From assembly GCA_028284465.1 (NCBI GenBank), contig JANQRR010000015.1, positions 17,286 to 81,285 on the forward strand: a stretch of DNA of 64,000 bases. Direction: 5' to 3'. Under the pieces are notes generated by a model that saw only the letters and a list, made by a program, of their open reading frames with translations, was not told the origin of the DNA and made no database searches. The stretch comes from Gammaproteobacteria bacterium (GTDB lineage Bacteria; Pseudomonadota; Gammaproteobacteria; JAJFKO01). Shown piece after piece: positions 23,314 through 58,964 of this stretch (position 1 is its first letter; each line of letters starts with the position of its first letter). Made by a program: the position numbers and the translations under genes.

Positions 23314-23843
23314 TTAACATTTACAAAGCGATTCAACCCCATTTAGCGAAATGGTTTGGTTTTCCTGAACAAGACACCTTTTGCCAGGTTGCGACTGTTG
23401 ACAAGAATACACCGCGGAATACACCGTGGGTTAGAACCATGCGTATGCATGCATTGTCTGAAGCTGGAGAAGTAACGTTATTAACGCGCACTAACACCGC
23501 AAAATGGCAGCAGCTACAAGCTTGTCCGAATGTTAGCATTTGTTTAGCCTATCCTGGGCATGGGCAAATTATCGCTTCAGGGCTCGCATCATTAAAGACA
23601 ACAAACGATAATGATGTTGCAGTCAAGGCATGTTGGGAAGAATTGCCGGCTACGATCAAGCGTTATTATCCAACTCAAGAACCAGTGACAGTGGTACCAA
23701 AAGATTTCGGCATGATTGTGATTGCTACCACAGTATGGGAAGTATTACAGATCAATGCACAAGATTATTTTCAGAGTCTTAGAACCTTATTCAGTTTTGC
23801 AGGTAATGCTTGGTATGAGCAAGCAGTTCCGGTCACTAGTTAA
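23310..23843 (+). CDS. Pyridoxamine-5'-phosphate-oxidase-like, FMN-binding split-barrel family protein.
   Basis: 177 aa with a general-stress-protein-26/PNPOx-like profile. It overlaps wecB by 4 nt and is co-transcribed with it. Confidence 0.45.
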
Positions 23844-25500: not shown

Positions 25501-25620
25501 AAATCAATAATCCAGGTTCTGAGTTGAATTGAGCAAATTGTAACATGTAATAAAGACCTTGAAAAAGCCGCGCATAATTAATACCATGTAGCAAATTTTT
25601 GCAGTGAGTTCCCACATAAA

Positions 25621-30134: not shown

Positions 30135-30210
30135 TGATTGATGCAGATGGATGTAGATGCTAAAATGCAGCACATTCTTGCTAGCATGATGTTAATTTAT
30201 GGAGATAAAT

Positions 30211-31158: not shown

Positions 31159-31222
31159 TGAGTATCATTTCAATCTCGCAGTGATAATTATTTAAATAAA
31201 ATTTAATTTCTATGGATATATA

Positions 31223-32269: not shown

Positions 32270-32271
32270 CT

Positions 32272-36589: not shown

Positions 36590-36766
36590 ATTTCACACTC
36601 TTTTGATCTGCTAAAAGTGGAACTACACGTTAAAAAAGCTTGAGTGTCAACCTTTTTAATTAAGTTTAACAATCATAGGTAACTATGTTAAAATACTCGA
36701 CAATATTATATGGTTATATTCTGGCCTAAAACTAGGGAAATAACATAAACAAAGGCATTTGATAGG

Positions 36767-38128: not shown

Positions 38129-39105
38129 TGGAAAAACAAACACAAAGAAGTATTGGGGTTGTCGGTGCTGGTAAATGGGGACGTAATATCATCAAAACTT
38201 TGCATGGGTTAGATGCTTTACATGCTATTGCTGAAGTTGATGATGTCTATCGCCAACAAATGAGTGAGCTTTATCCTCAAATTGACATATTTGATGATCA
38301 TGAAAAAATGTATCACGCTAATATTGATGTCGTTGTCATTGCAACACCAGTGATCACTCATTACGAATTAGCAAAACAAGCCTTATTGCTAGGCAAAGAT
38401 GTATTTGTTGAAAAGCCAATGACGTTTACTGCAGATGAATCTCGACACTTAACTCAAATTGCTAAAGAAAAAGATTGTGTGTTAATGGTTGGGCATATGT
38501 TATTGTATCAACCAGCAATCCAATTTATTAAACAATATCTTAACGACGGTCATTTAGGCAAAGTTTATAGCCTGCATCAAGTACGACGTAATTTAGGTAC
38601 CATTCGTACTCAAGTTAATGTTTTATATTCACTTGGCGTACATGATTTAGCAGTACTTGCTTATTTAGTTGGTGAATCAGCTCAATCAGTAACTGCAGCA
38701 GGTCAATCGATTGTAAGCCCAGGCATTGAAGATGATATGACGGTGCATATCCAATATGCCTCTGGCATTCAAGCGCACCTTCACATTTGTTGGTTGTGGC
38801 CAGTTAAAGATAGACATTTGATGATCTTAGGTGAGAAAGGTGCATTGCTGTATGATGAGTTGAATCATACGGTTACCTTATATCGTCATTATGCTAACGC
38901 TGATGCTACTGTGTCTAGTTCTGGTGGTAGCGAGATTATTTATCGAGGTAGTAATCAGCCTTTGACACAAGAAATGCAGCATTTCCTCGATTGTGTGCAC
39001 AGTCATCAGCAACCACTAAGTTCCGGACAGCAAGGGTTGGAAGTGGTAGAATTGATGGAATCGATCACTAAGCAATTATCAACTGAGGAATTGCATGTCT
39101 ACTGA
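38128..39105 (+). CDS. Gfo/Idh/MocA oxidoreductase (WbpB-like UDP-GlcNAcA 3-dehydrogenase).
   Basis: [12 protein letters not shown]ossmann motif and EKP motif. Its position between the WbpA-like and WbpD/E-like genes supports the call. Confidence 0.8.
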
Positions 39106-39688
39106 TTATTTTGTGCATGATACAGCGATTATCGATGCAGGCGCAAAAATTGGCATAGGTACGAAAATATGGCACTGGGTGCATGTGTGCGCTAGTGCAC
39201 AGATTGGTGAAAAGTGTAGCTTAGGCCAGAATGTTTTTGTGGGTAATAATGTTCGCATTGGTGATCAAGTCAAAATTCAGAATAACGTTTCTGTGTATGA
39301 CCAAGTAATTCTAGAAGATCATGTATTTTGTGGGCCAAGCATGGTGTTTACCAATGTTTATAATCCGCGATCAGCGATTTCTCGCAAACATCAATATCGT
39401 CCAACCTTAGTTAAGCAAGGTGCAACGATTGGTGCGAATGCAACAGTTGTTTGTGGAATAACTATTGGGCGTTACGCATTTATTGGCGCCGGTGCAGTGG
39501 TTACCCAGGATGTGGCAGATTTTGCTTTAATGGTTGGCGTGCCTGCTAAACAAATAGGTTGGATGAGCGCCTATGGTGAACGTTTAGATTTACCATTAAC
39601 TGGCTCAGCAAACACTACATGTAAGCATACTGGTGCGCACTATCAATTAGTTAATAGTCAATGCATCATCGCAGAGGAGATAGCTTAG
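39095..39688 (+). CDS. Hexapeptide-repeat (left-handed beta-helix) N-acetyltransferase, WbpD-like.
   Basis: Repeated [LIV]G..... hexapeptides run throughout the protein. Confidence 0.8.
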
Positions 39689-39692
39689 CATA

Positions 39693-40805
39693 ATGAAATT
39701 TATCGATTTAGCAACTCAGCAGCAACGTATTAAACCCTTACTTGATCAACGTTTGCAGGCGGTATTAGCTCATGGGCAATATATTATGGGGCCTGAGATT
39801 GTAGAACTTGAAGATCAATTAGCAAAATTTGTTGGGGTTGATCATTGTATCAGCGTGGCAAGTGGCACCGATGCATTATTAATTGCGATGATGGCTTTAG
39901 GTGTTAAGGCAGGTGATGAAGTTATTACAACCCCATTTACCTTTATCGCTACGGGTGAAATGATCCGTTTACTCGGAGCAATTCCAGTGTTTGTTGATAT
40001 TGATCCATATACTTATAACCTTGATCCGGCAAAGCTTACACAAGCAATCACTGCACGTACTAAAGCTATCATCGGAGTAAATTTATTTGGTCAATGCGCT
40101 GACTATCAAGCGATTAATGCAGTGGCTGCACAATACCACATTCCGGTGATTGAAGATGCTGCGCAAAGTTTTGGTGCTACGCATCATGGTGAGCAGTCTT
40201 GTAGCTTAACTACAATTGGTTGTACCAGCTTTTTTCCTTCCAAACCATTAGGCTGTTATGGTGATGGTGGTGCTTGTTTTACTAATGATGCAGCGTTAGC
40301 AACAACAATGCGACAAATTCGGGTTCATGGGCAATCGCAACGTTATCAGCATAATATCATCGGCATTAATGGGCGCTTAGATACTATGCAAGCAGCAGTA
40401 TTGTTGGCTAAGTTAACTATTTTTACCGCCGAAGTTAAAGCTCGTCAACAAATCGCTGACTACTATAACCAATTACTTCAAGACATTGCAGCCATTCCAA
40501 CGATTATGCCAGAGAATACCAGTGTTTACGCGCAGTATACCATTCAGATTGAAGAGCGCGATACCTTGCGTGAACAGTTAAAAGCAGCGGGTATTCCAAC
40601 CGCTGTGCATTATCCTAAGCCGTTGCACTTACAGCCTGCTTTTGCTGATCTTGCAATTGCACAACAGCATTTTCCCATAGCAGAAGAGGTTGCCAAGAAA
40701 GTGATCAGCGTGCCTATGCATCCTTACTTAAAAAAGGAGACAATTTCTACAATTGCTGCTAAAATCACCAAAATTTTAGCTGGTTCCGTGAGTATGAATG
40801 CATGA
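39693..40805 (+). CDS. DegT/DnrJ/EryC1/StrS-family PLP aminotransferase, WbpE-like.
   Basis: SGTDAL.IA, active-site region FFPSKPLGCYGDGG (Lys in SKPL). Confidence 0.85.
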   Translation: MKFIDLATQQQRIKPLLDQRLQAVLAHGQYIMGPEIVELEDQLAKFVGVDHCISVASGTDALLIAMMALGVKAGDEVITTPFTFIATGEMIRLLGAIPVFVDIDPYTYNLDPAKLTQAITARTKAIIGVNLFGQCADYQAINAVAAQYHIPVIEDAAQSFGATHHGEQSCSLTTIGCTSFFPSKPLGCYGDGGACFTNDAALATTMRQIRVHGQSQRYQHNIIGINGRLDTMQAAVLLAKLTIFTAEVKARQQIADYYNQLLQDIAAIPTIMPENTSVYAQYTIQIEERDTLREQLKAAGIPTAVHYPKPLHLQPAFADLAIAQQHFPIAEEVAKKVISVPMHPYLKKETISTIAAKITKILAGSVSMNA

Positions 40806-41605
40806 TCATTAATAAAAAAACATTTGCTGGTTATTTTCAAGGTATTTGGGCAAGTCGCTATTTTTGGACTCATTTGGCGTTGTCAGATCTACGAGCGCGT
40901 TTTCGTCGTTCTAAGCTTGGTATTTTATGGGCGATTCTTAATCCTTTATTGTTAACGTTATTACTTTCGTTTGTCATGGGTACCTTATTTCATCATTCAA
41001 TAGGTAGTTATGCGCCTTACGTATTTTCTGGGATCATTATTTGGACCTTAATTGTCGATTCAGGAGTGCAAGGTTGTCATTCATTAATTGTTGCCGAAGG
41101 TTATATCAAACAGTTTAGTCACCCAGCAATTATTTATCCGCTAAGAACGGTGTTGATCAATATGTTTATGTTTGGTTTTGGTTTTATGGGGTTGTTTATT
41201 TGGGTGTTATTGTGGCGTCCTAGTAATTTAAATATAAGTTTAATTAGTTTAATTCCAACCTTCATTCTTTATTTCTTGGCAGCATGGCCATTAGCAATCA
41301 TCACTGGTTTCATCAATAGTCAATTTCGTGATTTTGTGCAAGTTTTAGTATTAGTCTTTCAAGCGTTATGGTATACCTCACCAGTGTTTATCTCTGCTGA
41401 AACATTTGTTAACGCGCATCTGGGTTTTTTAGTGCATTATAATCCTATTTATCATGTGTTGAACTTAGTACGTGCGCCAATGCTCTATGGTAGAATGCCA
41501 ACACTCATAGATTATAGTGCGATTATTATTGTTGCTATGATATTTTGGATCGTTGCCATCATCAGGATCAAACATTACGAAGATAATATTATTTTTGCCC
41601 TATAG
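40802..41605 (+). CDS. wzm: O-antigen/teichoic-acid-type ABC exporter permease.
   Basis: 267 aa with 6 TM helices and an ABC-2 type permease. It overlaps the upstream gene by 4 nt. Confidence 0.8.
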   Translation: MIINKKTFAGYFQGIWASRYFWTHLALSDLRARFRRSKLGILWAILNPLLLTLLLSFVMGTLFHHSIGSYAPYVFSGIIIWTLIVDSGVQGCHSLIVAEGYIKQFSHPAIIYPLRTVLINMFMFGFGFMGLFIWVLLWRPSNLNISLISLIPTFILYFLAAWPLAIITGFINSQFRDFVQVLVLVFQALWYTSPVFISAETFVNAHLGFLVHYNPIYHVLNLVRAPMLYGRMPTLIDYSAIIIVAMIFWIVAIIRIKHYEDNIIFAL

Positions 41606-41616
41606 GTTGTTTTGTT

Positions 41617-42372
41617 ATGAATGCAGTTGTTGAATTAGATCAAGTTAATATGCATTATCGCACAGGTGCTTATCGCATGCTGTCAATCAAAGAATCTGTT
41701 TTTAATTTTTTAGCACGTAAAAAAAGTGAAAAACAGTTTATCTACGATGTGCATTCTTTAAAAAATATGAGCTTTAAAGTGCAAGAGGGGGAACGAATTG
41801 CTTTATTAGGGCATAACGGTGCGGGTAAAAGCACGTTATTAAAAGTCATTGCAAATATTTATCCTATCTCTGATGGCAAATTAAATGTCGTCGGTAAAGT
41901 ACGATCGTTATTTGAATTATCAACCGGATTTGAACCAGAAGCGACAGGTATTGAAAACATTATTTATCGTGGTTTACTCTTAGGGCAATCGCCAAAATAC
42001 ATGCGCAAAATCCGTGATGAAATTATTGAATTTGCAGATATTGGTGAATTTATTAATTATCCGTTAAAAACGTACTCTGCAGGTATGCAAGTGCGTTTGG
42101 CTTTTGCGATTTCGACCATGATTGAAGGCAATATTTTACTGTTAGATGAAATTTTAGGGGCAGGGGATGCTAATTTTATTGAAAAAGCCAAAGCGCGGAT
42201 TTTATCTCTTATTGAAAAAGCAAGTATCATGTTTTTAGCTAGCCACGATTTGGTAACAATCAAAGATATTTGTACGCGTGGGCTAGTGATTGAACATGGT
42301 AACTTAATGTTTGATGGTCCAGTGAATGAAGCCGTAGATTATTATAAACAACTTATTGCTAAAAAGGAGTGA
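41617..42372 (+). CDS. wzt: O-antigen ABC exporter ATP-binding protein. It is short, with no C-terminal carbohydrate-binding domain.
   Basis: Walker A GHNGAGKST, signature YSAGMQVRLAFA, Walker B ILLLDE. Only 251 aa long. Confidence 0.85.
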   Translation: MNAVVELDQVNMHYRTGAYRMLSIKESVFNFLARKKSEKQFIYDVHSLKNMSFKVQEGERIALLGHNGAGKSTLLKVIANIYPISDGKLNVVGKVRSLFELSTGFEPEATGIENIIYRGLLLGQSPKYMRKIRDEIIEFADIGEFINYPLKTYSAGMQVRLAFAISTMIEGNILLLDEILGAGDANFIEKAKARILSLIEKASIMFLASHDLVTIKDICTRGLVIEHGNLMFDGPVNEAVDYYKQLIAKKE

Positions 42373-42373
42373 C

Positions 42374-43210
42374 ATGACTACAGTGGCACGGACAGATATT
42401 AGTAAAGCTAATGAAGAATTTTGGACAGAGCTTTGTGGAACGGTATTAGCTAAGAATTTAAATATTGTCGATCACTCACTAGAGTCTTTACAGAAATTTG
42501 ATGACTATTATTTGAATTTTTACCCTTATTTACTCCAACATCTTACGCTGGCTGAAGTTAAGGATAAAAAAATTCTAGAAATTGGTTTAGGTTACGGTAC
42601 TTTAGGGCAAAAGCTCGCAGAAAATTGTCGAGAGTATATTGGCCTCGATATTGCTGCAGGTCCAGTCAAGATGATGAATCATCGTTTAAAGATGCAATCT
42701 TTACCAGGCAAAGCAATACAAGGTAATATGCTCGAGTGCTCATTAGAGACAGCAAGCGTTGATGGAGTAGTTTCCATTGGGTGTTTTCATCATACTGGTG
42801 ATGTGCAACGCTGTATTGACGAAACATATCGTGTTTTGAAAAAAGGCGGTTTTGCTTATCTTATGTTATACAATCGTTACTCTGGGCGGCAATGGCGACG
42901 TTGGCCAAACCAGACTTTCAAGCATTGGTTGCAAGAATATCTTGGGATCGGCAGTGCAATTAATGAGGTGTCTGAGCAGCAACGTGCAGCGTATGATCCT
43001 AACCAAGAAGGTGCAGCAGCGCCCGAAACGACATTTCATTCAATTAAGGAAATTAAACGAATGATGCATAAGTTTTCTAATGTTAAGTGTTATCGGGAAA
43101 ACTTCGATAATGTTATTTACAAAGGTAAGATTAAAATTCCTCGCGAGAAGTTATTATCAAACTTAGCTAAAGTTGCAGGGCTGGATATTTATATAAGAGC
43201 GACTAAATAA
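42374..43210 (+). CDS. Class-I SAM-dependent methyltransferase.
   Basis: ILEIGLGYGTLGQKL (motif I) and VLKKGGFAYL (motif post-II). The ATG at 42374 has an AAGGAG RBS; the track start at 42356 is a TTG. Confidence 0.7.
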   Translation: MTTVARTDISKANEEFWTELCGTVLAKNLNIVDHSLESLQKFDDYYLNFYPYLLQHLTLAEVKDKKILEIGLGYGTLGQKLAENCREYIGLDIAAGPVKMMNHRLKMQSLPGKAIQGNMLECSLETASVDGVVSIGCFHHTGDVQRCIDETYRVLKKGGFAYLMLYNRYSGRQWRRWPNQTFKHWLQEYLGIGSAINEVSEQQRAAYDPNQEGAAAPETTFHSIKEIKRMMHKFSNVKCYRENFDNVIYKGKIKIPREKLLSNLAKVAGLDIYIRATK

Positions 43211-43213
43211 CTT

Positions 43214-45217
43214 TTATAAACAATCTAAATTACGATTGATCCATACTTCATGCCAAAGGATGGCATTCATCACGGTCCATAAGTGAAAAGAGTAGCCGCC
43301 ACCTGATCGCATTTGTTGTGATAATAATTTAGTAAAATAATCTTTATTGATAAAACCGGCTTTAACAAGGTCAGATTTATTAAATGCATCTAAACACCGT
43401 TGACCAAAATCAGGTTCTTTAAACCATTTCTCCATCGGCGCGCCAAAACCTTGCTTACGTCGATATAACATATCGTCATCAACAAAGGGCTCAGCAATTT
43501 TTTTCAAAATGGCTTTGCCAATGCCGTTATGCAGTTTATATTCTGCTGGCAAGCGCATCGCAAATTCAACAATATCATGATCTAAAAAAGGCACACGTGC
43601 TTCAATCGAATGTGCCATAGTCATTTTGTCTACCCGCATTAATAAATGTTCAGGTAAACGCAATTTATGTTCCATATAGGGAATTTTTTGTAAAATTTCC
43701 GGTTCAACGAGCTGGCCATTTAAGCTGCCAAGATAATGATTAACAATCGCGTGGCTATCTAATTTGCTATGACTGGCAGGTAACAAATTAGCAACAGGAC
43801 ATTCTAATGATTGCCCAAAGGGAGCTAGATCAGGCGTTAATTGGGAGCGCATATCACCCCACCAGCACACCGCGCCACCCCAAAATAATTGTTGTTGTTG
43901 GCGTGCACGTTGAATAATAGCTTTATCTTCTATGGCTAAGCCGGGCAGTCGATGTTTAGATTTGAATAATAATCTTTGCCACCAAGAAGACTGCTGTTGG
44001 GCGGGTAAATACACGTCTTGATATTTTTTACGGTAATGATCACACCACCAATATCCTAAAAAGTTTTCATCAGCGCCTTCGCCGACTTGCACTACGGTAG
44101 TGCCTTTAGATTTAACTAATTTAGCGAGAAAGTATAAAGGAATACAAACATTGTCAGCGATAGGTTCATCTTGTAGCTGTACTAATAATGGTAAAAAATC
44201 TAATGCTTCTTGCCCATTAATTTGGGTTTCATAATGATCGGTGCGGTAACGTTTAGCAATGCGACGTGCATATTCAAATTCATTAAATTCTTCATGAGTG
44301 GCATAACCTATAGAAAATGTGGTTACCGGTCTATCCATTAACTCACTCATTAAAGCGACGTTTAGACTTGAATCTACGCCACCTGATAATAATACGCCAA
44401 ATGGTACATCAGCTACCATGCGTCGGCTGATCGCTTGACGTAATAAACGTAATAATTCTGCTTCAGCATCGGCTGGTGATAAATCATTAGGAGAATAAGT
44501 AAGTTCACGACTAGGTTTACAATCCCACCATTGCCAGGCGTGCGCGTTGCCTTGATGATTGATCGTGATCCCAAAGCCTGCCGGTAATTTCCAAATACCT
44601 CTAAATAAAGTCATTGGTGCAGGAGTTACAATAAATGTTAAGTAATGCCAAAAAGCAGTATGATCCATTTCGCGAATGACATCCGGATGCGCTAGTAAGG
44701 ATCGTATCTCAGAGCCAAACACCCATTCACCGGTATTGGTGCGGCTAAAATATAATGGTTTAATGCCAATTCGATCGCGTATTAAATGTAATTCTGGTTT
44801 GTCAGGATTACGGCGATCATAAATTGCTATTGAGAACATACCTACAAGTTTAGGCAGCATATCAACATGCCATTCTTCAAAAGCATGCAAAATCACTTCA
44901 GTATCAGAATGATCGGTTTTCCATTGGTATTTGCCAAGTTGCATTAATTCTTGGCGTAATTGTTTATGATTATATATTTCACCATTAAAAACAATAATAA
45001 CGGAATTGTCAGTATTAGCCATTGGTTGTTGCGCGGCATGAGATAAATCAATGATGGATAAACGGCGATGACCGAGGGCACAACGGTGATCAGGCGCGCG
45101 CCATAAGCCGGCATCATCAGGGCCGCGATGAGTCATAGCATCACGCATGTTAATTAGTGTTTGGTTATCAACGACACTTTTGTTTGTTGAACTAAAACAA
45201 CCAATGAATCCACACAT
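43214..45217 (-). CDS. Asparagine-synthase-like glutamine amidotransferase, third copy.
   Basis: The start at 45217 gives MCGFIGCF. HRGPDD, SGGVDSS and the asparagine-synthase C-domain are present. Confidence 0.85.
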   Translation of the reverse strand: MCGFIGCFSSTNKSVVDNQTLINMRDAMTHRGPDDAGLWRAPDHRCALGHRRLSIIDLSHAAQQPMANTDNSVIIVFNGEIYNHKQLRQELMQLGKYQWKTDHSDTEVILHAFEEWHVDMLPKLVGMFSIAIYDRRNPDKPELHLIRDRIGIKPLYFSRTNTGEWVFGSEIRSLLAHPDVIREMDHTAFWHYLTFIVTPAPMTLFRGIWKLPAGFGITINHQGNAHAWQWWDCKPSRELTYSPNDLSPADAEAELLRLLRQAISRRMVADVPFGVLLSGGVDSSLNVALMSELMDRPVTTFSIGYATHEEFNEFEYARRIAKRYRTDHYETQINGQEALDFLPLLVQLQDEPIADNVCIPLYFLAKLVKSKGTTVVQVGEGADENFLGYWWCDHYRKKYQDVYLPAQQQSSWWQRLLFKSKHRLPGLAIEDKAIIQRARQQQQLFWGGAVCWWGDMRSQLTPDLAPFGQSLECPVANLLPASHSKLDSHAIVNHYLGSLNGQLVEPEILQKIPYMEHKLRLPEHLLMRVDKMTMAHSIEARVPFLDHDIVEFAMRLPAEYKLHNGIGKAILKKIAEPFVDDDMLYRRKQGFGAPMEKWFKEPDFGQRCLDAFNKSDLVKAGFINKDYFTKLLSQQMRSGGGYSFHLWTVMNAILWHEVWINRNLDCL

Positions 45218-45224
45218 AAAAAAT

Positions 45225-47291
45225 TTACTCCCAAAATTGATCAGCAAGTTTGCTAGCAGAAGTAATACTAAGTTGGTTTGATACTTGCGGTTGTACTAGC
45301 CATGTTATTTTAGTAATACTAGGATCATTTAATTTTGCAACCAACATTAAAGTTGGTATTCGCTTGCCATAACCGGGCGCGTACCAAGAGTTTTCAACTT
45401 GCCATGATAAATTATCTGTTTGTAATTTAAAGCTATGCTGATCATTGGTGATAATAACTGTGTTATCGCCTAAATCAGCGTTTAAACCAGGATGTAGTAA
45501 TAATTGCCAGCGACGTTTAGATAGGTTATCGCCAGTAAAGATATCATCAACAATCATACTATCGTCGGCTAGTAATAAAATGCGGCGATCATGCTGTTGT
45601 TGATCTTTAGTGAAACGACCATGAACGCCTTGCATGTTATTCATGTGGCGTTTTTCAACAAAAGATGTTTCACCTTGTTGGCGTAAATTAAATAGTACAG
45701 CAGGATCAAATTGATGTTGTTCTTGATCATTGATTAACACGGTATTATGAATAGTGGTGCTGCGATGTTGGTTGCGTGCAGCCGGATCTTGCGTATAAGT
45801 ATAATTTCCAGCATCAACAAACACCGGTTGTTGTTGGTAGCACCATTCTATGGATAATTGATCACAATGCTTATGATTGCCAACGCCATCGGTGCCTGGC
45901 CCAAGATTGGCAAAAGTGAGATGGCTTTGTGGTGATTGCAGCACAGCAATGCCACTAGTTGGATAAACTTGTGGATTTGTCGATGAAAATTGCTTGGTAT
46001 CGATATCAACTGTAGGCCAGCAGCATTCACTCACTTGGTTAGTTTTAGCAATGTTAGCGCTAAACGCAGGTAACGAAAATACTTTCGCTGCCGCAACAAA
46101 TAAATGATCAAAAGAATCTGTTTGCCAATGTTGGTATTGCGCAAAGATATGCGCACGCGCATTATCCGCATCTCCAATTTGCGCGACACGGCTGCTTGGC
46201 TGGCGTAAGCTATGTAAAAATTGTAATCCAAGTAATAAGCGTTGTTTGTAATTCTCAGATAACGGGAGTTTAGCATGCTGAGATAAGGCATAAGCCGATA
46301 AAAACATTTCAAGCATAAAACGGTGATAAGACAAGCTAGATTCGTAAGGGCCACCGTCAGTGAGAATTTGTCGTGTAATTTGTTGTTGTAAACCAGTTTC
46401 AGCAATACCTCGCCACACACAAGCGGCATCTAGGTGTGGGAAATTGAGAGCAAGCCAATACAAACCAAAAAAATTAGCCACACCATGGTTAGAAACAATC
46501 AGTTTGCCATGGAAAGTACCATATTCAAGATTTGCCACCATAAAACGGCCATGCATCACTAAGCTTTTTAGCAGGCGGCGCCACCAAAGGTATGTTAAAG
46601 TTTTGGAATGTTGAAAAAAGTTTAGTGCTGCTAACCAACCAACAATACGTAAACTAACATCCATATTACAAGCCCAATGCACGCCAAAACCGACAGGATT
46701 TTTGCGAATAAAATCCATAATGATGTTGGCAAAGTAACGCGCGTAACGTTCATCTCCTGTCAACCAATAGGCTTGACCAATGGTTACTAAATGTTGACAG
46801 CGAGTGATTTCCCAAGGGCCTTTTATATCGGCATTGCGAGAATTTTTTTGTGTAGCTTGATACCAACGCCAATGATTGAATAATTGTGGGAATTGTTGTT
46901 TAGTAATGGGATCTTTACGCCAATTAAGTTGCCAGCCATGAGCTTGGGAAGAACGACGCATATCGACACTACCACCCCCTAAAATGTCAAACTTACCTTT
47001 AAGTAATTCATTAGCAGTTTCAATAATAATGTTAACTTGTTGTGGATATTCTTTTTTTAACGTAGCAATAAATGTATGTTGATCGGTAGGAAGAAAATTC
47101 CGTTGACCGAAATGTCCTAAGCGTTGCGCAATGACATATTGCTTAAAGCTGCTGATCCCCATTCGCTTTAATATTGCAGTCATTTCGCCATCACTGGGCA
47201 AGCGTTGTAAAAAATAATGTTTACATTCCCACAGCCGTAATTGTAAATAATCCAAGCTATTACAGCAGGCTTGTGCAATTTGTCTGATCAT
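45225..47291 (-). CDS. Heparinase II/III-like (alginate-lyase superfamily) protein, 688 aa.
   Basis: WHLHYFD-like N-terminal region (WQLNWRKD), W..N.DV.LRIV.W, GG..ESS.SYH blocks typical of Hepar_II_III family proteins found in polysaccharide loci. Confidence 0.7.
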   Translation of the reverse strand: MIRQIAQACCNSLDYLQLRLWECKHYFLQRLPSDGEMTAILKRMGISSFKQYVIAQRLGHFGQRNFLPTDQHTFIATLKKEYPQQVNIIIETANELLKGKFDILGGGSVDMRRSSQAHGWQLNWRKDPITKQQFPQLFNHWRWYQATQKNSRNADIKGPWEITRCQHLVTIGQAYWLTGDERYARYFANIIMDFIRKNPVGFGVHWACNMDVSLRIVGWLAALNFFQHSKTLTYLWWRRLLKSLVMHGRFMVANLEYGTFHGKLIVSNHGVANFFGLYWLALNFPHLDAACVWRGIAETGLQQQITRQILTDGGPYESSLSYHRFMLEMFLSAYALSQHAKLPLSENYKQRLLLGLQFLHSLRQPSSRVAQIGDADNARAHIFAQYQHWQTDSFDHLFVAAAKVFSLPAFSANIAKTNQVSECCWPTVDIDTKQFSSTNPQVYPTSGIAVLQSPQSHLTFANLGPGTDGVGNHKHCDQLSIEWCYQQQPVFVDAGNYTYTQDPAARNQHRSTTIHNTVLINDQEQHQFDPAVLFNLRQQGETSFVEKRHMNNMQGVHGRFTKDQQQHDRRILLLADDSMIVDDIFTGDNLSKRRWQLLLHPGLNADLGDNTVIITNDQHSFKLQTDNLSWQVENSWYAPGYGKRIPTLMLVAKLNDPSITKITWLVQPQVSNQLSITSASKLADQFWE

Positions 47292-50035
47292 GATATCGGT
47301 TTAGTTGCTTTAATCACTAAATTCCAACCGCAGCATTTACCTAATAAATTTATTGGCAACCAACGTAGAATTCTTGGCAATTCAGCTCTCATAAGTTGAC
47401 GTTGAATAATATGAATGTTATCGAAGTCGCTAAATAACCCGCGCAAACGTCTTTTGCTATAGACTTTAACTAAAGGACGGGCGTCATTCTCAGCTAACTC
47501 AACTCGACGTGACATGATTTCACCGATTGAATAATTGTTCGTTAATTTTTTTTCAAACCATTCAACACCGACTAAATTTTTCCAAAAATGATAAGAGTTT
47601 TGCGCATACACCATTATGATAACTTTACCACCGGGCTTTAATACCCGATACATTTCTTTAACAATTTTTGCAGTATTAGGTGAATGATGAATGACACCGT
47701 TACTATAAACCACATCGAATGTATTATCGGCGAATGGCATATTTTCAGCATCACCGTGATGAAATTCACCGGTTAAGTTACGCAGTTTAAAGTTGGTTTT
47801 TGCATGTGCTAAATGTCCTGATGATAAATCTAGATCTGTAACTAAAGCACCGTGTTTAGCAAATTGTGCCAGATCGGTGCCAATGCCGCCGCCAACTTCT
47901 AATACTTTCTCACCAGCATGTTGATCAAATTCCATATCGTGTAATAACCATGGACCATATTCTTGATAGCGGTAACGCTCAACTTCTTCAAACCAAGGTA
48001 ACGTGTAAAGCTCGATCCCATTAACATATTGACTACCACAAGGATTGTTATCCCATTGAGCTTGCACTTGATGTTTATAATGATCATCTGCTAATTCATT
48101 TTTTTGATCGACATCAACCAGTAATGTTTGACGTTGGTCAATAGGTAAAAGCGTATGAATTTTGCTAAGGTAGGATTTCGATAAAACGTCTGGTAATAAA
48201 TATTTACTTGGTTCTTTTCGATAAAGAAAATTCCATAAGCGGGTAACGTGATGTTGCCAGCTATATGTTGTTAATACTGCTTGGCGTGCATTCTTACCTA
48301 ATTGTTCACAAATAGTTTGATGATTGATCAGAAATTCAATTGCACTAATGAAATGTTTGCGATTACCAGGCTGACAGAGAATAGCTCTTTGCTGATCAAC
48401 AGTTGTTGTTGAAGATAAATTATCAGCAAATAATGCAGGTCTAAGAACGTTGCCTATCTGCATGAGGTCACTAGCGATAATGCCTGTGCCCAGTGCCATA
48501 TATTCAAATAACTTGGTGGGTGAACCAAAAAATTTAGTGGATTGCATATGGGTTGCATGCGGGCAAAGAAAAATATCACAGGTTTGTAAATGATGAAGTG
48601 CTTTGTCAGGTGCTATCAAGCCAGTGATATGGACTTGATCATCAAGCTTATGTTTAGCAATGGCTGCATCGATTAAATGGCGCAAACTACCATCACCGAT
48701 TAATAAAAATTTGACATGAGTGTGTTGTTGACAAATATTAGGTATGAGATCGGCAAGTACATCTATGCCATGCCAAGCACCGAAAGTACCCGTAAAACCA
48801 ATAACAATATCGTTAGCTTGCCAACCTAAAGCAAGTTTATTTTGTGCTTTTGCGGCAGTGGTGATTGGTTTGAAAATATCAGGATCGGCACCATTTGGGT
48901 TTACTAAGATTTTTTCACTCGATACACCACGCTCGATTAGTTCAAGCGCTACGACATCTGAGACGACATTGATGGCAGAAGCTTGCTTAAATGCAGCCAT
49001 TTCTGCATCTAAAAACAATTGTTCATTTGTGTAAGTATGGTTATTGAAAGAACGTTGCATCGTTAATTCAGAGCCATTATATTCAACAATATAAGGGATA
49101 TTTAATTCTTTACTTAAGTAAGCCCCTAAATAATTACCTAAGCAAATTCTTTCGTAAATAAAAGCCGGCGCAATAGCAGCAAGTTCTGATTTCAGCTTGG
49201 TATAATAATGGCTGTTAGCAAGTAGTAATTTGCTTTCTGCTTGGGATTTAAGATTTTTTAACACGACTTGTTTGATGTTCATATCATCTAACATTTTAAA
49301 ACGAGAGCCTATAAACACAGTTAGCTCAGCACAATGTTTTTGTAATTCTTTAGCGACATAGCAGGTATGGCTATAAGAACCACCGGCAGTAAGTTTTGCC
49401 CAGAAATCTAACCGCAAATAAACACCTTTTTTGGCTTCAGTTGCTTGCAGCGGGATTGGTGAGCAAGATGATAATAGTTCTGCTAAGTCTTTTGCAATTT
49501 CAGCGTTAGGTTGTTTAAACTTACGCAATAAAGTAGTACGCAAATTAGCAGGCAAAATATTTAAAGATTTGCGCAGCATAAATTTTGTTAACCAAAATGC
49601 CTTATGGGCAGCAGCTTTATAACTATGTAAGTAAAATAGTTTGTTAATATGACGTAACCAAAAAAAATTGCGGCTAATTTTTAAAAAGCACAAAAACAGC
49701 CAGATCTGTTGATAAGTATCCAAACGTTCTTTATCGATAACTTCAATCGCTTCTTCTTGTGGCCAGTAGAACCAAAGTTGCAATTGTTGCTGCTGAATAG
49801 TTTTGGCAAGTTCTAAATATTTTTTGTGAGGTGCGCCACCATTAATAGCAATAACAACGCCAGCACAATCATGCTGTTTGATCGCATGTACAATATCGTT
49901 GCAAGGTTTGAGCTTCGGAATAGCAATATTAATTTGATGACGTTCACTAAACTGAGTTAATCGATCATTGTTAATGATCCCGGCTTGGTTATCGTCGTGA
50001 GAATAATAAAGATAGTTATGTGCTTGGTTATTCAT
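47288..50035 (-). CDS. Bifunctional GT4 glycosyltransferase and C-terminal class-I SAM methyltransferase (about 915 aa).
   Basis: GT4 E-x7-E region FFGSPTKLFEYMALGTGIIASD, then VLEVGGGIGTDL and LKPGGKVII methyltransferase motifs. The start was set at ATG 50035 (MNNQAH...), 2 nt after the upstream stop; the longer ORF would overlap the upstream gene by 196 nt. Confidence 0.7.
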   Translation of the reverse strand: MNNQAHNYLYYSHDDNQAGIINNDRLTQFSERHQINIAIPKLKPCNDIVHAIKQHDCAGVVIAINGGAPHKKYLELAKTIQQQQLQLWFYWPQEEAIEVIDKERLDTYQQIWLFLCFLKISRNFFWLRHINKLFYLHSYKAAAHKAFWLTKFMLRKSLNILPANLRTTLLRKFKQPNAEIAKDLAELLSSCSPIPLQATEAKKGVYLRLDFWAKLTAGGSYSHTCYVAKELQKHCAELTVFIGSRFKMLDDMNIKQVVLKNLKSQAESKLLLANSHYYTKLKSELAAIAPAFIYERICLGNYLGAYLSKELNIPYIVEYNGSELTMQRSFNNHTYTNEQLFLDAEMAAFKQASAINVVSDVVALELIERGVSSEKILVNPNGADPDIFKPITTAAKAQNKLALGWQANDIVIGFTGTFGAWHGIDVLADLIPNICQQHTHVKFLLIGDGSLRHLIDAAIAKHKLDDQVHITGLIAPDKALHHLQTCDIFLCPHATHMQSTKFFGSPTKLFEYMALGTGIIASDLMQIGNVLRPALFADNLSSTTTVDQQRAILCQPGNRKHFISAIEFLINHQTICEQLGKNARQAVLTTYSWQHHVTRLWNFLYRKEPSKYLLPDVLSKSYLSKIHTLLPIDQRQTLLVDVDQKNELADDHYKHQVQAQWDNNPCGSQYVNGIELYTLPWFEEVERYRYQEYGPWLLHDMEFDQHAGEKVLEVGGGIGTDLAQFAKHGALVTDLDLSSGHLAHAKTNFKLRNLTGEFHHGDAENMPFADNTFDVVYSNGVIHHSPNTAKIVKEMYRVLKPGGKVIIMVYAQNSYHFWKNLVGVEWFEKKLTNNYSIGEIMSRRVELAENDARPLVKVYSKRRLRGLFSDFDNIHIIQRQLMRAELPRILRWLPINLLGKCCGWNLVIKATKPIS

Positions 50036-52313
50036 GATTGTCAATAGTTTCCTTGTTAAAAATAAGATCATCAATTCGTAAAGCCACAGCAGTGGTTTCA
50101 ATAATTTCGGCATAAGGAATAGGTGCAGCTTGTTGCTGCTTAATAGCCTTGCCCAAAGCAAGCAACTCATTAAAATGACCTTTGTCAGTATCACCACGCC
50201 ATAATACTGTGCCATCGCTAGCACGCGTTAAGCTTTGATAATCATCTAGAATATATGCTTCGCCATCGACAAATACTTCAATATATTCTTTAGGCAAGCC
50301 TTGTTTAGGGCCTAACGCGGTATACATAAGATTAGCGATGCTGCCATCTTCATAGCCTAGTGTTGCTATGAAATTATCATTCTTTAAATAAGGCAGTTTG
50401 CCGGGAGTAATCGCTTGAGCGGTAATGTGATTTACCGGAGCGTCGGCAAGATAGCGAAAACAATCGTACATATGACAGGCTTCACCTAAGTTGCGGCCGC
50501 CACCTTGTTGGTTTTGGATCCAATGATCCGGTTTAATGTAACCACCATTTAAGCGATAATTAATCATTAATGGAGAAGTGCGGTTTGTCAAAATACGTTT
50601 TAATTTTTGCATCGCTGGCGAAAAACGTCGATTAAAACCAACCATAAGCAATGGTGGATTTGTTAACGCGGAATATGTTTCATTGATCTCATGTAATTCT
50701 TCCCAGGTTAACGCTAGTGGTTTTTCTACAAAGATATGTTTATTCGCTTGTAAACCAGCGATCACTTGTTTAGCGTGATCACAATGTCGGGTAGCAATCA
50801 CTAGTAAATCACAGTCATCATTTGTTAATACCGGTGCAAGTTCACTGGCAAAAATTTCTAATTGATGAGTGCGCACATAATTGCCGCCACGGACGGCATC
50901 GCGACTAACAATACCTTGCAAAAAGAATAAATTATCGCATTTTGCCATTTGTGGTACTAGCATTGCTGTGCCAAAAGCGCCAGCGCCAACTAAGATATAA
51001 TTAATTTTATCACGCTGTGGTTTACGATGGCCGTGTAAACGGATCAAGGTGGCGTCAGCAGGCTGAGGTGATGGCATAGTTTCTTGAGGGTATTCAATCA
51101 TCACGCCAAGTAAACTTTGCTTGCGATCATTCAAAAGTTGTTTATAGGTTGCTGGTGCTTCATCAAGCGTAATCGTTTTATCAATTATTTTATCAATGTT
51201 AATTTGTCCACGAGCGATTAATTCCATATAGGCTTGCATGTTGCGATTGCTGGTCCAGCGTACATAAGCATAGGGATAATCACGGCCTTGTTCTTCATAA
51301 CTTGGATCATAACGCCCAGGTCCATAAGACGAACTGATCAACAAGGTAATTTCTTTTTTATAAAAATGTTGACGTTTAACGTGTAAGCCGACATCACCAA
51401 CGATAACAACGGTGCCTTTGCGGCGAGTTATTTCCATTGCTGAATTAATAACGTGATCCGATTTAGTCGCTGCAGTGATGAGAGTGCGATCAGCACCGTG
51501 ACCTTGCGTGGCATTGTTGATAAGTTTAACTAACGTTTTATTATCACTGCAGCCAGCATTCATGCCAAGATCTAATGCGCGTTGTACGCGTTCGGCAGAT
51601 AAATCCATACCAATTACATAACAACCATTAGCACGTAGCATTTGGATAGTTAACTGACCTAATAAACCAAGGCCAATAACTACAATAGTTTCACCAAGAG
51701 TAGGTTGTGCCTGGCGTATGCCTTGTAACGCAATGGTGCCTAAGGTAGTTGAAGCGGCTGCTTTAACATCACAACCTGATGGAATAGGACAGACTAAATT
51801 ACGTGGCACGCTGATATATTCTGCGTGGTTAGCACAGCCTGCGCCAGCACAAGCAACTAATTCACCCGGCGCAATATCATTAATACCATCACCCACAGCA
51901 ATGACTTCACCTGCAGCTGAATAGCCGACATTCCAACCCATAGCAAGCATTTCATCCGCTTGCACATCCATTTCTTCAGCGCTTAACTCATCAGGAGCAG
52001 CATTGGTGGCGACGGCAGCGAATGCTTTAGCTTTCACTCGACGCGCAATTAGACGGAGTCTTTCGGCAGCTTTTTGCGGATCACGAATAGCTTTGCCCAG
52101 ATACATACGAGCGAGGTTGGTATAATTCTTAGCTTTAGCAATAGGTGTCACATTCGGTGTTTGCGCAGTGCTGGTGGTCCGTAAACTCGCTAATTCAGTT
52201 CCTGGACTTATCATTGAATAATGAACTTTGATCAATATATTGCCAGGCGTGGCGCTCGGAGCGGGCATTCGGGCAATTAACGCCCCTGAACTGTTAAGCA
52301 GGATCTGCTTCAT
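50028..52313 (-). CDS. Bi-domain oxidoreductase: N-terminal zinc-type alcohol dehydrogenase (MDR) domain fused to a C-terminal Gfo/Idh/MocA domain.
   Basis: The start at 52313 (MKQILLNSSG...) parallels MKQVVQNLKTG of the 58965 paralogue. GLGLLGQLTIQMLRANGCYVIGMDL (MDR Rossmann) and INYILVGAGAFG ... HIFVEKP (GFO/IDH). Confidence 0.75.
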   Translation of the reverse strand: MKQILLNSSGALIARMPAPSATPGNILIKVHYSMISPGTELASLRTTSTAQTPNVTPIAKAKNYTNLARMYLGKAIRDPQKAAERLRLIARRVKAKAFAAVATNAAPDELSAEEMDVQADEMLAMGWNVGYSAAGEVIAVGDGINDIAPGELVACAGAGCANHAEYISVPRNLVCPIPSGCDVKAAASTTLGTIALQGIRQAQPTLGETIVVIGLGLLGQLTIQMLRANGCYVIGMDLSAERVQRALDLGMNAGCSDNKTLVKLINNATQGHGADRTLITAATKSDHVINSAMEITRRKGTVVIVGDVGLHVKRQHFYKKEITLLISSSYGPGRYDPSYEEQGRDYPYAYVRWTSNRNMQAYMELIARGQINIDKIIDKTITLDEAPATYKQLLNDRKQSLLGVMIEYPQETMPSPQPADATLIRLHGHRKPQRDKINYILVGAGAFGTAMLVPQMAKCDNLFFLQGIVSRDAVRGGNYVRTHQLEIFASELAPVLTNDDCDLLVIATRHCDHAKQVIAGLQANKHIFVEKPLALTWEELHEINETYSALTNPPLLMVGFNRRFSPAMQKLKRILTNRTSPLMINYRLNGGYIKPDHWIQNQQGGGRNLGEACHMYDCFRYLADAPVNHITAQAITPGKLPYLKNDNFIATLGYEDGSIANLMYTALGPKQGLPKEYIEVFVDGEAYILDDYQSLTRASDGTVLWRGDTDKGHFNELLALGKAIKQQQAAPIPYAEIIETTAVALRIDDLIFNKETIDNHE

Positions 52314-52416
52314 TCTTGCTTGTTCCTTATTAAAAGTGGGCATTTTAGCATATTTTGCCAAGCGAGTAAGTGATGTTACGATAGAGTGAGCTGGAAGCAT
52401 AAGGCGAGGAGAATGG

Positions 52417-58862: not shown

Positions 58863-58964
58863 AGTGTATGTTATAAAAAAGTCCAGTTATTTGCAAATTG
58901 TTAGGTGTTTGAGGTGCTTTGTTATGCTACAATTGCCGCAAATTGAGTTCATGGGCCAAAATCA

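What the first reader, a model, noticed from the sequence alone, without database searches (positions are those of the whole stretch)
43214..52313. Uncharacterised cassette, copy A: bi-domain oxidoreductase, GT4-methyltransferase fusion, heparinase II/III-like protein, AsnB
A fused zinc-ADH/Gfo-Idh-MocA oxidoreductase (761 aa) sits next to a heparinase II/III-like protein, an AsnB-like amidotransferase and a GT4. This combination recurs in polysaccharide loci of diverse bacteria and archaea, but none of its proteins has a demonstrated activity. The heparinase-like fold is structurally related to glycosaminoglycan C5-epimerases and lyases. It may therefore act on the polymer, as a uronate C5-epimerase or in trimming, while the bi-domain oxidoreductase suggests an oxidation/reduction epimerisation on a nucleotide sugar. 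The GT-methyltransferase fusion would couple transfer with O- or N-methylation.
Basis: partly seen in the sequence, partly recalled or inferred. Interest (0 to 1): 0.65.

Follow-up and report, generated by a model that had tools for sequence, protein, structure and literature searches.

The report
Conserved uronic-acid sugar-inverting glycan cassette
The four genes are real and form a tightly coupled operon found in many bacteria; it most likely remodels and polymerises an amino-uronic-acid sugar for a cell-surface polysaccharide, with a cytoplasmic "heparinase-like" enzyme and a two-domain oxidoreductase flipping sugar stereocentres, a pathway for which I found no published description.

The parts
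50028..52313 (-). Bi-domain oxidoreductase, copy A (761 aa): an N-terminal MDR domain without zinc ligands plus a C-terminal Gfo/Idh/MocA domain
   Evidence: Pfam. The family alignment shows invariant GxGxxG and D237 in the MDR domain, and GAGxxG, V469-S-R471, the EKP motif and GEACH in the Gfo domain. AF2 model pLDDT 79. Foldseek neighbours of the Gfo domain are C3-oxidising sugar dehydrogenases, including WlbA, KanD2/GenD2 and levoglucosan DH.
47288..50035 (-). GT4 glycosyltransferase fused to a class I SAM methyltransferase (915 aa), with an unassigned ~215-aa N-terminal region
   Evidence: Pfam. The start codon overlaps the OR stop by 8 nt. The same fusion is found in L002, L086 and L087, and the two parts are separate genes in Pseudomonas L001 and L085.
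45225..47291 (-). Cytoplasmic PL12-like Hepar_II_III protein, copy A (688 aa)
43214..45217 (-). AsnB-type glutamine amidotransferase (667 aa), probably forming the uronamide
   Evidence: Pfam and NCBIfam. Starts MCGFIG, giving the Cys2 nucleophile. It is a conserved member of the module.
40802..43210 (+). Wzm (40802..41605), Wzt (41617..42372; 251 aa, no C-terminal binding domain) and a second methyltransferase (42356..43210), convergent with the cassette
   Evidence: Pfam. The same three functions follow Hep in the orthologous modules.
56847..62755 (.). Copy B: Hep 56847..58862(-), bi-domain OR 58965..61097(+) and Hep 61091..62755(+, 7-nt overlap with the OR)
   Evidence: Pfam. The OR is 55% identical to the Ralstonia EPS-I operon OR.
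22147..28721 (.). Precursor supply for ManNAcA: WecB-like 22147..23313(+), GT4 23836..25500(-), WecC-like 25621..26829(+), AsnB 26820..28721(+)
   Evidence: Pfam. The WecB-like and WecC-like proteins are 61% and 59% identical to Ralstonia EpsC and EpsD.
30199..40805 (.). 2,3-diacetamido-uronic acid branch: WbmH/G-like and WbmF-like SDRs (30199..32269), AsnB (32230..34179), WbpI-like 2-epimerase (34155..35273, -), and WbpA/B/D/E-like genes (36767..40805)
   Evidence: Pfam. PDB matches to 2q1w (E 2.6e-105) and 2pzj (E 1.8e-138).

Best explanation
Copy A is one module of a large cell-surface glycan locus (about 22-63 kb of the window). It builds an ABC-transporter-exported polymer of a 2-acetamido hexuronic acid or its amide.

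Proposed steps (all inferred):
1. UDP-D-ManNAcA is supplied by the WecB/WecC-like genes.
2. The bi-domain oxidoreductase inverts a ring hydroxyl, most likely C3. One NAD(P) domain oxidises it to the ketone and the other reduces it from the opposite face.
3. The cytoplasmic PL12-like protein removes the C5 proton next to the carboxylate, using the conserved Asn/His/Tyr/His set. It returns the proton from the other face instead of eliminating O4, which makes it a C5 epimerase. C3 plus C5 inversion converts D-ManNAcA into L-GalNAcA.
4. The GT4 domain polymerises or transfers the sugar.
5. The fused methyltransferase and/or the downstream one modifies or caps the chain.
6. AsnB converts the C6 carboxylate into the amide.
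7. Wzm/Wzt export the chain.

Shown here: the gene content, the operon structure, conservation of the module, cytoplasmic location, the fold, the conserved catalytic residues, and presence of the OR-Hep pair in the Ralstonia EPS-I operon plus a probable equivalent pair in V. vulnificus YJ016, whose products both contain L-GalNAcA.

Inferred: every catalytic step, the substrate level (nucleotide sugar, lipid-linked intermediate or nascent chain), and whether copy A yields the same sugar as the EPS-I-type copy B.
For: - Operon and domains.
- Module synteny: OR, then GT4(-MT), then Hep, then Wzm/Wzt, MT and AsnB in 6 of 6 Hep-clade loci.
- OR-anchored survey of 53 loci: Hep in 26, AsnB in 24, either one in 38, GT4 in 43.
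- Flanking dehydrogenases are WecC-type 29 times and WbpA-type 4 times. In L034 a WecB~WecC fusion abuts the OR.
- Ralstonia eps operon: epsC(wecB), epsD(wecC), other genes, then an OR of 713 aa and a 'heparinase' with a 4-nt overlap. The window has close orthologues: OR_B 55%, WecC 59%, WecB 61%.
- EPS-I and V. vulnificus YJ016 glycans contain alpha-L-GalNAcA-(1-3)-Bac (PMC11200240).
- The adjacent genes VV0357 ('zinc-binding dehydrogenase') and VV0358 (heparinase II/III-like) are each required for capsule (PMC6037467). Older annotations give B-type ORs the same name, 'zinc-binding dehydrogenase'.
- Stereochemistry (established knowledge): D-Man and L-Gal differ at C3 and C5 only.
- The structural neighbours of the Gfo domain oxidise sugar C3.
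- A C5 epimerisation of ManNAcA after transfer has been proposed for V. cholerae VpsJ, an unrelated protein (PMC13463779).
Against: - No biochemical activity is known for any member, and the link to L-GalNAcA is a correlation from two organisms plus elimination of the other operon genes.
- I did not verify that VV0357 is a bi-domain OR.
- Copy A's OR is only 35% identical to the EPS-I OR, and its Hep only 20% to the EPS-I Hep. It may therefore make a different epimer or act at a different level.
- About half of the OR loci show no Hep within 10 kb, so the OR can work without it.
- Nearly all Hep invariant residues are also conserved in true PL12 lyases. Only H475 differs (Q in heparinase III). 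Nothing in the sequence separates epimerase from lyase.
- Copy A lies next to the wbpABDE operon. If its substrate were ManNAc3NAcA, C3 oxidation would be impossible.
- The OR model is only moderate (pLDDT 79, pTM 0.55), and its most conserved motif is disordered in the model.
Confidence: 0.45

Rival explanations
1. Hep is a genuine cytoplasmic beta-eliminating lyase. It trims the nascent chain, sets chain length, or leaves a 4,5-unsaturated non-reducing end that can no longer be extended. The oxidoreductase acts on that product or on an unrelated step.
For: - Every catalytic residue of PL12 is kept.
- In ABC-type pathways the whole chain is made in the cytoplasm, where Hep resides.
- The authors of the V. 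vulnificus paper favoured a lyase role.
Against: - A lyase is not expected to be essential for making capsule, yet the VV0358 deletion abolishes it.
- In Wzy-type loci such as Ralstonia and V. vulnificus no polymer exists in the cytoplasm.
- This view leaves the C3/C5 inversions needed for L-GalNAcA in EPS-I without any candidate enzyme.
- Known biosynthesis-associated lyases such as AlgL are periplasmic (own knowledge).
Confidence: 0.15
2. The oxidoreductase works through a 4-keto intermediate, in the manner of GDP-mannose 3,5-epimerase. One domain oxidises C4, Hep (or the OR itself) epimerises both C3 and C5 by enolisation, and the second domain reduces C4. This would also allow ManNAc3NAcA as a substrate for copy A.
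For: - Copy A is adjacent to the wbpABDE-wzm-wzt operon.
- Two nucleotide-binding domains would fit separate oxidation and reduction half-reactions.
- Bordetella converts UDP-ManNAc3NAcA to the L-galacto form with SDR enzymes (PMC3849452). Own knowledge: this route is thought to proceed through a 4-keto intermediate.
Against: - 4-Keto-hexuronic acids decarboxylate readily, as in UDP-xylose synthase and ArnA (established knowledge). That would destroy the carboxylate that Hep and AsnB need.
- The Gfo domain's neighbours are C3 dehydrogenases.
- The window already encodes WbmF/WbmH-like enzymes for the diacetamido sugar.
Confidence: 0.15
3. The OR is a WbpB-like 3-dehydrogenase that feeds an aminotransferase, with the MDR domain recycling the nicotinamide cofactor. 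Hep and AsnB are independent tailoring enzymes with no joint epimerisation role.
For: - WlbA/WbpB is among the structural neighbours.
- DegT-type aminotransferases lie within 10 kb in 12 of 53 OR loci.
Against: - Most OR loci lack an aminotransferase (41 of 53).
- The window and Ralstonia loci already have dedicated enzymes for their amino sugars.
- OR and Hep are translationally coupled in Ralstonia and in copy B.
Confidence: 0.1

Closest known systems
Ralstonia solanacearum EPS-I (eps) operon genes: 'dehydrogenase' RS_RS22000 and 'heparinase-family protein' RS_RS21995
   Same: Both have a bi-domain OR followed directly by a Hepar_II_III protein, downstream of WecB/WecC homologues. Window copy B's OR is 55% identical, its WecC 59% and its WecB 61%. 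Their function is also unassigned in the literature I could search.
   Different: EPS-I is a Wzx/Wzy-type heteropolymer locus. Copy A belongs to an ABC-transporter module with a GT4-methyltransferase. Its OR is 35% and its Hep 20% identical to the Ralstonia proteins.
Vibrio vulnificus YJ016 VV0357 ('zinc-binding dehydrogenase') and VV0358 (heparinase II/III-like)
   Same: An adjacent dehydrogenase and Hep pair linked to a capsule locus. Each is required for capsule, serum resistance and virulence (PMC6037467). The glycan contains L-GalNAcA (PMC11200240).
   Different: I could not compare the sequences here. The bi-domain nature of VV0357 is inferred only from its annotation.
PL12 heparinase III (Pedobacter HepC 4MMH; Bacteroides BT4657 5JMD/5JMF; 4FNV)
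   Different: Sequence identity is 15-18%. The window protein has no signal peptide and sits in a biosynthetic operon rather than a glycosaminoglycan-utilisation locus. H475 replaces the Gln of heparinase III.
Lyase-fold uronate C5-epimerases (human dermatan-sulfate epimerase 1, 6HZN); also the functional analogues Glce, AlgG and the proposed V. cholerae VpsJ
   Different: There is no detectable sequence-family membership (no Pfam epimerase hit). DS-epimerase, Glce and AlgG act on finished polymers outside the cytoplasm (own knowledge). VpsJ is described with a different set of fold relatives.
WbpB/WlbA UDP-GlcNAcA 3-dehydrogenase and other Gfo/Idh/MocA sugar C3 dehydrogenases (KanD2, GenD2, levoglucosan DH)
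   Same: These are structural neighbours of the C-terminal domain. The EKP and GFNRR motifs are kept.
   Different: In the window protein the domain is fused to a zinc-less MDR domain through a family-specific, strongly conserved linker motif (SYGPGRYD...VRWT). No aminotransferase partner is required.
ABC-transporter-dependent O-polysaccharide systems with terminal methylation (E. coli O8/O9a WbdD-Wzt), and the Bordetella wbm O-antigen locus
   Same: Both have Wzm/Wzt plus methyltransferases and AsnB-type amidotransferases. The window has WbmF/WbmH orthologues and the WbpABDEI set. Long Wzt proteins, one with a weak Wzt_C hit, occur in orthologous modules.
   Different: The window's Wzt is 251 aa and has no carbohydrate-binding domain. 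I could not test whether Bordetella wbmA-E include OR or Hep homologues.

Membership tests
PL12 / Hepar_II_III polysaccharide lyases | (alpha/alpha) toroid plus beta-sandwich fold with sequence-family membership | tested here: met
PL12 / Hepar_II_III polysaccharide lyases | Catalytic Asn / Tyr / His | tested here: met
   N268, Y322 and H473 align with N216, Y270 and H400 of chain 4MMI. From memory these are N240/Y294/H424 in precursor numbering. They are conserved in 77-80 of 80 homologues.
PL12 / Hepar_II_III polysaccharide lyases | Secreted or periplasmic enzyme in a catabolic context | tested here: not met
   No N-terminal hydrophobic segment: the highest 10-residue KD window is 0.80, and the family median is 0.99. 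The gene is embedded in a biosynthetic operon.
PL12 / Hepar_II_III polysaccharide lyases | Beta-eliminative cleavage activity | not testable with these tools
   This needs an enzyme assay.
Uronate C5-epimerases | Sequence membership in a known epimerase family (Glce C5-epim_C, DS-epimerase, AlgG/AlgE) | tested here: not met
   No such Pfam or NCBIfam hit. Only the fold resembles DS-epimerase 1.
Uronate C5-epimerases | An L-configured (C5-inverted) uronic acid in the product glycan | not testable with these tools
   Indirect only: the glycans of two organisms with the pair contain L-GalNAcA. The glycan of this organism is unknown.
Bi-domain-containing oxidoreductase (NCBI name): MDR + Gfo/Idh/MocA fusion | Both domains in one chain, with the family motifs SYGPGRYD, GFNRR and GEACH | tested here: met
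   Pfam. Invariant columns. Homologues at 55-65% identity carry this name.
Zinc-dependent MDR alcohol dehydrogenases | Catalytic zinc ligands (Cys, His, Cys/Glu) | tested here: not met
   The positions read S33-x2-S36-x-G-T-E and G130-Y131-S in place of the Cys and His ligands (alignments). Motif positions were assigned from my own knowledge of the MDR family.
ABC-transporter-dependent O-polysaccharide pathway | Wzm and Wzt encoded with the glycosyltransferases | tested here: met
   40802..42372. The same pair lies within the orthologous modules.
ABC-transporter-dependent O-polysaccharide pathway | Terminal-cap recognition through a Wzt C-terminal domain | tested here: not met
   The window's Wzt is 251 aa and contains the ABC_tran domain only. 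Orthologous modules have 567-608-aa Wzt proteins, one with a weak Wzt_C hit.
AsnB-type uronamide-forming amidotransferases (WbpS; WbmC/I/Z) | N-terminal Cys nucleophile, GATase domain and Asn_synthase domain, in a uronic-acid glycan locus | tested here: met
   The MCGFIG start, Pfam and the locus context. The activity on sugars is itself only inferred in the literature (PMC2615507).
Ralstonia EPS-I-type OR-Hep pair | Orthology to the eps operon OR and Hep | tested here: inconclusive
   Copy B's OR is 55% identical, which indicates orthology. Copy A's OR is 35% and its Hep 20%, which makes it a paralogous subfamily.

The most novel reading that the evidence does not exclude
The bi-domain oxidoreductase and the cytoplasmic PL12-fold protein together form a previously unrecognised, very widespread two-enzyme route to L-configured 2-acetamido-hexuronic acids (D-ManNAcA to L-GalNAcA). 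A polysaccharide-lyase scaffold serves as a biosynthetic C5-epimerase, and a dual-cofactor oxidoreductase drives a directional C3 inversion. In the copy-A subfamily the pair has been recruited to act on a growing ABC-exported homopolymer.
Probability: 0.4. Interest if true: 0.75.

Novelty: new variant of a known kind. Interest (0 to 1): 0.6.

Why it matters
L-GalNAcA and related L-hexosaminuronic acids occur in virulence-linked glycans. Examples are the EPS-I wilt factor of Ralstonia, the V. vulnificus capsule, and P. aeruginosa O3, O10 and O19. In the literature available to me no enzyme is assigned to their formation.

The OR family is very large. More than 8,000 proteins scored in each search, and at least 600 hits came from species-representative genomes across many phyla. 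PGAP still gives it only a descriptive name.

The analysis yields a concrete, cheap test: two proteins, UDP-ManNAcA, and NAD(P). A positive result would do four things:
- annotate thousands of genes;
- explain why a 'heparinase' is essential for capsule synthesis;
- add a bacterial cytoplasmic example of a lyase fold turned epimerase, paralleling animal dermatan-sulfate epimerase;
- help predict glycan structures from sequence.

Tried and rejected
rejected. No Hep protein has a signal peptide or TM segment.
- **Chance association:** rejected on the basis of synteny and the survey.
- **Recent duplication of copy A and copy B:** rejected. Identities are 23-36%.
- **Literature:** ten full-text searches found no functional study of the OR or of biosynthetic Hep proteins. 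Preston 1999 and Lam 2011 are not held.
- **Bordetella wbmA-E:** I could not establish whether these genes include OR or Hep homologues. The papers name only wbmB as a glycosyltransferase and wbmC/I/Z as amidotransferases.
- **Organism identity:** exact look-ups gave singleton clusters without names. The window's own genome was not among the 80 genome-contig hits returned. A Legionellales-like origin is only a guess from GC content (~38%) and the ankyrin/TPR proteins.
- **Unassigned regions:** Pfam at E<=1 found nothing convincing in the ~120-aa insert of long A-type ORs, in the GT4-MT N-terminal region, or in the 439-, 468- and 685-aa proteins.
- **Promoters and terminators:** the scan over 42900-52700 found no more sites than shuffled sequence. 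There are no tRNA genes in the window.
- **Rosetta-stone fusions:** no OR-Hep fusion was found among the loci, only one WecB~WecC fusion.
- **Active-site differences:** I looked for residues that would separate epimerase from lyase and found only H475 versus Gln, which is not diagnostic.
- **Not tested:** occurrence in archaea.

Full report
**Observation**

The interval 43214-52400 holds four long minus-strand ORFs and no competing ORF of note. Pfam assigns them as follows:
- 50028..52400: ADH_zinc_N plus GFO_IDH_MocA.
- 47288..50224: GT4 domains plus Methyltransf_11.
- 45225..47291: Hepar_II_III_N plus Hepar_II_III_C.
- 43214..45247: GATase plus Asn_synthase.

I refined three start codons.
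- The oxidoreductase (OR) starts at ATG 52313, behind an AAGGA, and reads MKQ like its homologues.
- The GT4-methyltransferase starts at 50035 and overlaps the OR stop by 8 nt.
- AsnB starts at 45217 with MCGFIG, the obligatory Cys2 nucleophile, 7 nt after the Hep stop.

Hep and the GT4-methyltransferase overlap in an ATGA.

**Surroundings**

The cassette is part of a glycan locus spanning about 22-63 kb.
- A WecB-like epimerase (22147..23313) and a WecC-like dehydrogenase (25621..26829) flank a GT4 and precede an AsnB.
- Two SDR enzymes (30199..32269) match Bordetella WbmH/WbmG (2q1w, E 2.6e-105) and WbmF (2pzj, E 1.8e-138). According to PMC3849452, these enzymes convert UDP-ManNAc3NAcA to the L-galacto form.
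- A third AsnB, a WbpI-like epimerase and WbpA/B/D/E-like genes follow. Next come wzm, wzt and a methyltransferase, which run convergently into the cassette.
- Beyond a degenerate P-type ATPase and a cupredoxin gene lies 'copy B': Hep, OR and Hep at 56847..62755.
- Copies A and B are old paralogues. The ORs are 36% identical and the Heps 23-26%.

**Conservation**

HepA has full-length homologues at 40-50% identity. I examined six loci of this clade: the window, Pseudomonas sp. No.21, P. chlororaphis, a 6.9-Mb genome and two metagenomic contigs.
- In all six the order is an A-type OR, then GT4 (fused to the methyltransferase in four), then Hep.
- After Hep come Wzm/Wzt in five of the six (in L087 an ABC-2 permease/ATPase pair lies upstream of the OR instead), one or two methyltransferases, and one or two AsnB genes.

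I also scanned one genome per species with an OR alignment. This gave at least 600 confirmed hits across Pseudomonadota, Bacteroidota, Chloroflexota, Bacillota, Campylobacterota, Patescibacteria, Chlamydiota and other phyla. For the 53 loci with at least 5 kb on both sides, iterated HMMs found the following within 10 kb:

| Feature | Loci (of 53) |
|---|---|
| Hep | 26 |
| AsnB | 24 |
| Hep or AsnB | 38 |
| GT4 | 43 |
| UDP-sugar 6-dehydrogenase | 23 |
| 2-epimerase | 27 |

- The dehydrogenases are WecC-type 29 times and WbpA-type 4 times.
- In one locus a WecB~WecC fusion abuts the OR.

**The heparinase-like protein**

- None of the three window copies, and none of the 45 aligned homologues bar one borderline case, has an N-terminal hydrophobic segment or a TM helix.
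- An AlphaFold model built on 45 sequences is confident (pLDDT 92, pTM 0.93).
- Foldseek ranks heparinase III first (E 1e-24). PL35, PL17, PL33 and PL15 lyases follow.
- A family profile matches heparinase III at E ~1e-62. N268, Y322 and H473 align with its Asn, Tyr and His. From memory these are the residues described as catalytic for Pedobacter HepIII.
- In 80 biosynthetic-locus homologues, including the Ralstonia protein, W124, R215, H269, Y322 and H473 are invariant and N268 is present in 77.
- Almost all of these residues are also present in the lyases. Only H475 differs (Gln in heparinase III). The sequence shows an active C5-deprotonating enzyme but cannot say whether the outcome is elimination or reprotonation.

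**The oxidoreductase**

- Both nucleotide-binding motifs are intact. The MDR domain has GxGxxG with an invariant Asp at the end of beta2. The Gfo domain has GAGxxG followed by an invariant V-S-R.
- From general knowledge of these families, that pattern suggests NAD in the first domain and NADP in the second. This is an inference.
- The zinc ligands of classical MDR dehydrogenases are replaced.
- The model is moderate (pLDDT 79). The family's most conserved motif, SYGPGRYD...YEE...DYP...VRWT, is its least confident part.
- The Gfo domain's neighbours include KanD2/GenD2, levoglucosan dehydrogenase, NAD-dependent glycosidases and WlbA (UDP-GlcNAcA 3-dehydrogenase). All of these oxidise sugar C3. 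An NADP-bound PmdC is the top hit.
- The family is very large. More than 8,000 proteins scored in each of two searches, and the searches were capped.
- The A-type subfamily mostly carries an extra ~120-residue insert with no known family. The window's copy lacks it.

**The lead to function**

- A tblastn search of plasmids hit 133 Ralstonia megaplasmids.
- In the annotated record the hit lies inside the eps (EPS-I) operon. The gene order is: phosphatase, tyrosine kinase, UDP-GlcNAc 2-epimerase, wecC, two transporters, a GT, an acyltransferase, the OR (713 aa), a 'heparinase' (611 aa, 4-nt overlap with the OR), a GT, the initiating transferase, an acetyltransferase and an aminotransferase.
- The window's copy-B OR is 55% identical to the Ralstonia OR. 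Its WecC and WecB homologues are 59% and 61% identical to EpsD and EpsC.
- A 2026 preprint lists these two genes as 'the dehydrogenase' and 'the heparinase-family protein' of the eps cluster and assigns them no function.
- PMC11200240 states that alpha-L-GalNAcA-(1-3)-beta-D-Bac occurs in the glycans of P. solanacearum GMI1000 (citing Orgambide 1991) and of V. vulnificus YJ016.
- In YJ016 the adjacent genes VV0357 ('zinc-binding dehydrogenase') and VV0358 (heparinase II/III-like) are strain-specific. Each is required for capsule, serum survival and virulence (PMC6037467).
- Several B-type ORs carry the same old name, 'zinc-binding dehydrogenase'.
- D-mannose and L-galactose differ only at C3 and C5. 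In the eps operon the remaining genes are accounted for by the bacillosamine branch, transfer and export. The OR and Hep are left as the only candidates for the two inversions that turn EpsC/EpsD-made UDP-ManNAcA into L-GalNAcA. This is an argument by elimination plus a two-organism correlation, not proof.

**Mechanism proposed**

- The OR inverts C3 by oxidation in one domain and reduction from the other face in the second.
- I consider a 4-keto route less likely, because 4-keto-uronates decarboxylate readily (established chemistry of UDP-xylose synthase and ArnA).
- Hep inverts C5 through the carboxylate-stabilised carbanion.
- On a nucleotide sugar, or on a non-reducing terminal residue, O4 is a free hydroxyl and a poor leaving group. 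That would favour reprotonation over elimination.
- In Wzy-type loci a cytoplasmic Hep cannot reach finished polymer, so it must act on the nucleotide sugar or on a lipid-linked intermediate. The latter has just been proposed for the unrelated VpsJ of V. cholerae (PMC13463779).
- In ABC-type modules such as copy A the whole chain is cytoplasmic, and GT4 lies between the OR and Hep. Chain-level action is therefore possible there.
- AsnB would amidate last, because Hep chemistry needs the carboxylate.
- The methyltransferases are conserved members of the module. Orthologous modules have long Wzt proteins, one with a weak Wzt_C hit, which fits a terminal methyl cap as in E. coli O8/O9a. The window's Wzt is short (251 aa), so that coupling is not evident here.

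**Limits**

- No enzyme activity is known for any member.
- Copy A is a paralogue of the EPS-I type and may make a different epimer.
- Half of the OR loci lack a nearby Hep.
- Lyase chemistry is not excluded.
- I did not verify the domain structure of VV0357.
- The organism and its glycan are unknown.

**Novelty and score**

The gene families and the pathway type are known, and the gene pair has been seen before (the Ralstonia and V. vulnificus papers). Three things have no counterpart in the literature I could search:
- the definition of the module;
- its link to UDP-ManNAcA and to L-GalNAcA-containing glycans;
- the reading of a cytoplasmic PL12-fold enzyme as a biosynthetic C5-epimerase paired with a dual-domain C3-inverting oxidoreductase.

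I rate it a new variant of a known kind, with interest 0.6.

Noticed in passing
window 52417-54650: A 534-aa P1B-type ATPase-like ORF has the CPC motif but no DKTGT (it reads VIDQLGK), a degenerate hinge (SDGVHNKD) and a short N-domain. With a 4-nt overlap it is followed by a 210-aa protein made of two cupredoxin-like repeats. The pair sits between glycan cassettes A and B, divergent from the copy-A operon.
   Followed up: partly
window 30199-32269: Two SDR genes are close homologues of Bordetella WbmH/WbmG (2q1w, E 2.6e-105) and WbmF (2pzj, E 1.8e-138). They lie next to an AsnB and the WbpABDEI set. This points to a Bordetella-like UDP-L-GalNAc3NAcA(N) branch in the same locus.
   Followed up: partly
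window 50028-52313, residues 329-358: The most conserved motif of the bi-domain oxidoreductase family (SYGPGRYD..YEE..DYP..VRWT..RN) is the least confident stretch of the AlphaFold model (pLDDT below 50). It may be a lid or an interface that orders only with substrate or a partner.
   Followed up: no
L001:2714-5350, L002:4670-7315 and about 100 homologues: Most A-type oxidoreductases are 875-900 aa because of a ~120-residue insert after residue ~100. The insert has no Pfam match. The window's copy A is one of a minority of short forms.
   Followed up: partly
window 28728-30134 (+), 35270-36589 (-), 54777-56834 (+): Three proteins inside the glycan locus have no family assignment. They are 468 aa, 439 aa (weak Glyco_trans_1_2, E 0.01) and 685 aa (lysine-rich, with one hydrophobic segment near residue 54).
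   Followed up: partly
window 5000-16050: Large TPR (1794 aa), unassigned (719 aa) and ankyrin-repeat (890 aa) proteins lie in a lower-GC stretch (0.30-0.34). They resemble the eukaryote-like effectors of intracellular bacteria. The window's proteins, including RpsA, are singletons at 90% identity in the protein collection.
   Followed up: no
L034:7419-10004: A single ORF fuses the UDP-GlcNAc 2-epimerase and the UDP-ManNAc dehydrogenase, and it ends 4 nt inside the start of the bi-domain oxidoreductase.
   Followed up: no
L086:21558-22148 and L087:20771-22169: In two orthologous modules a second unit of GT4 (or GT2-GT4) plus another Hepar_II_III gene follows the AsnB genes. Tandem Hep-containing units are therefore not peculiar to this window.
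   Followed up: no
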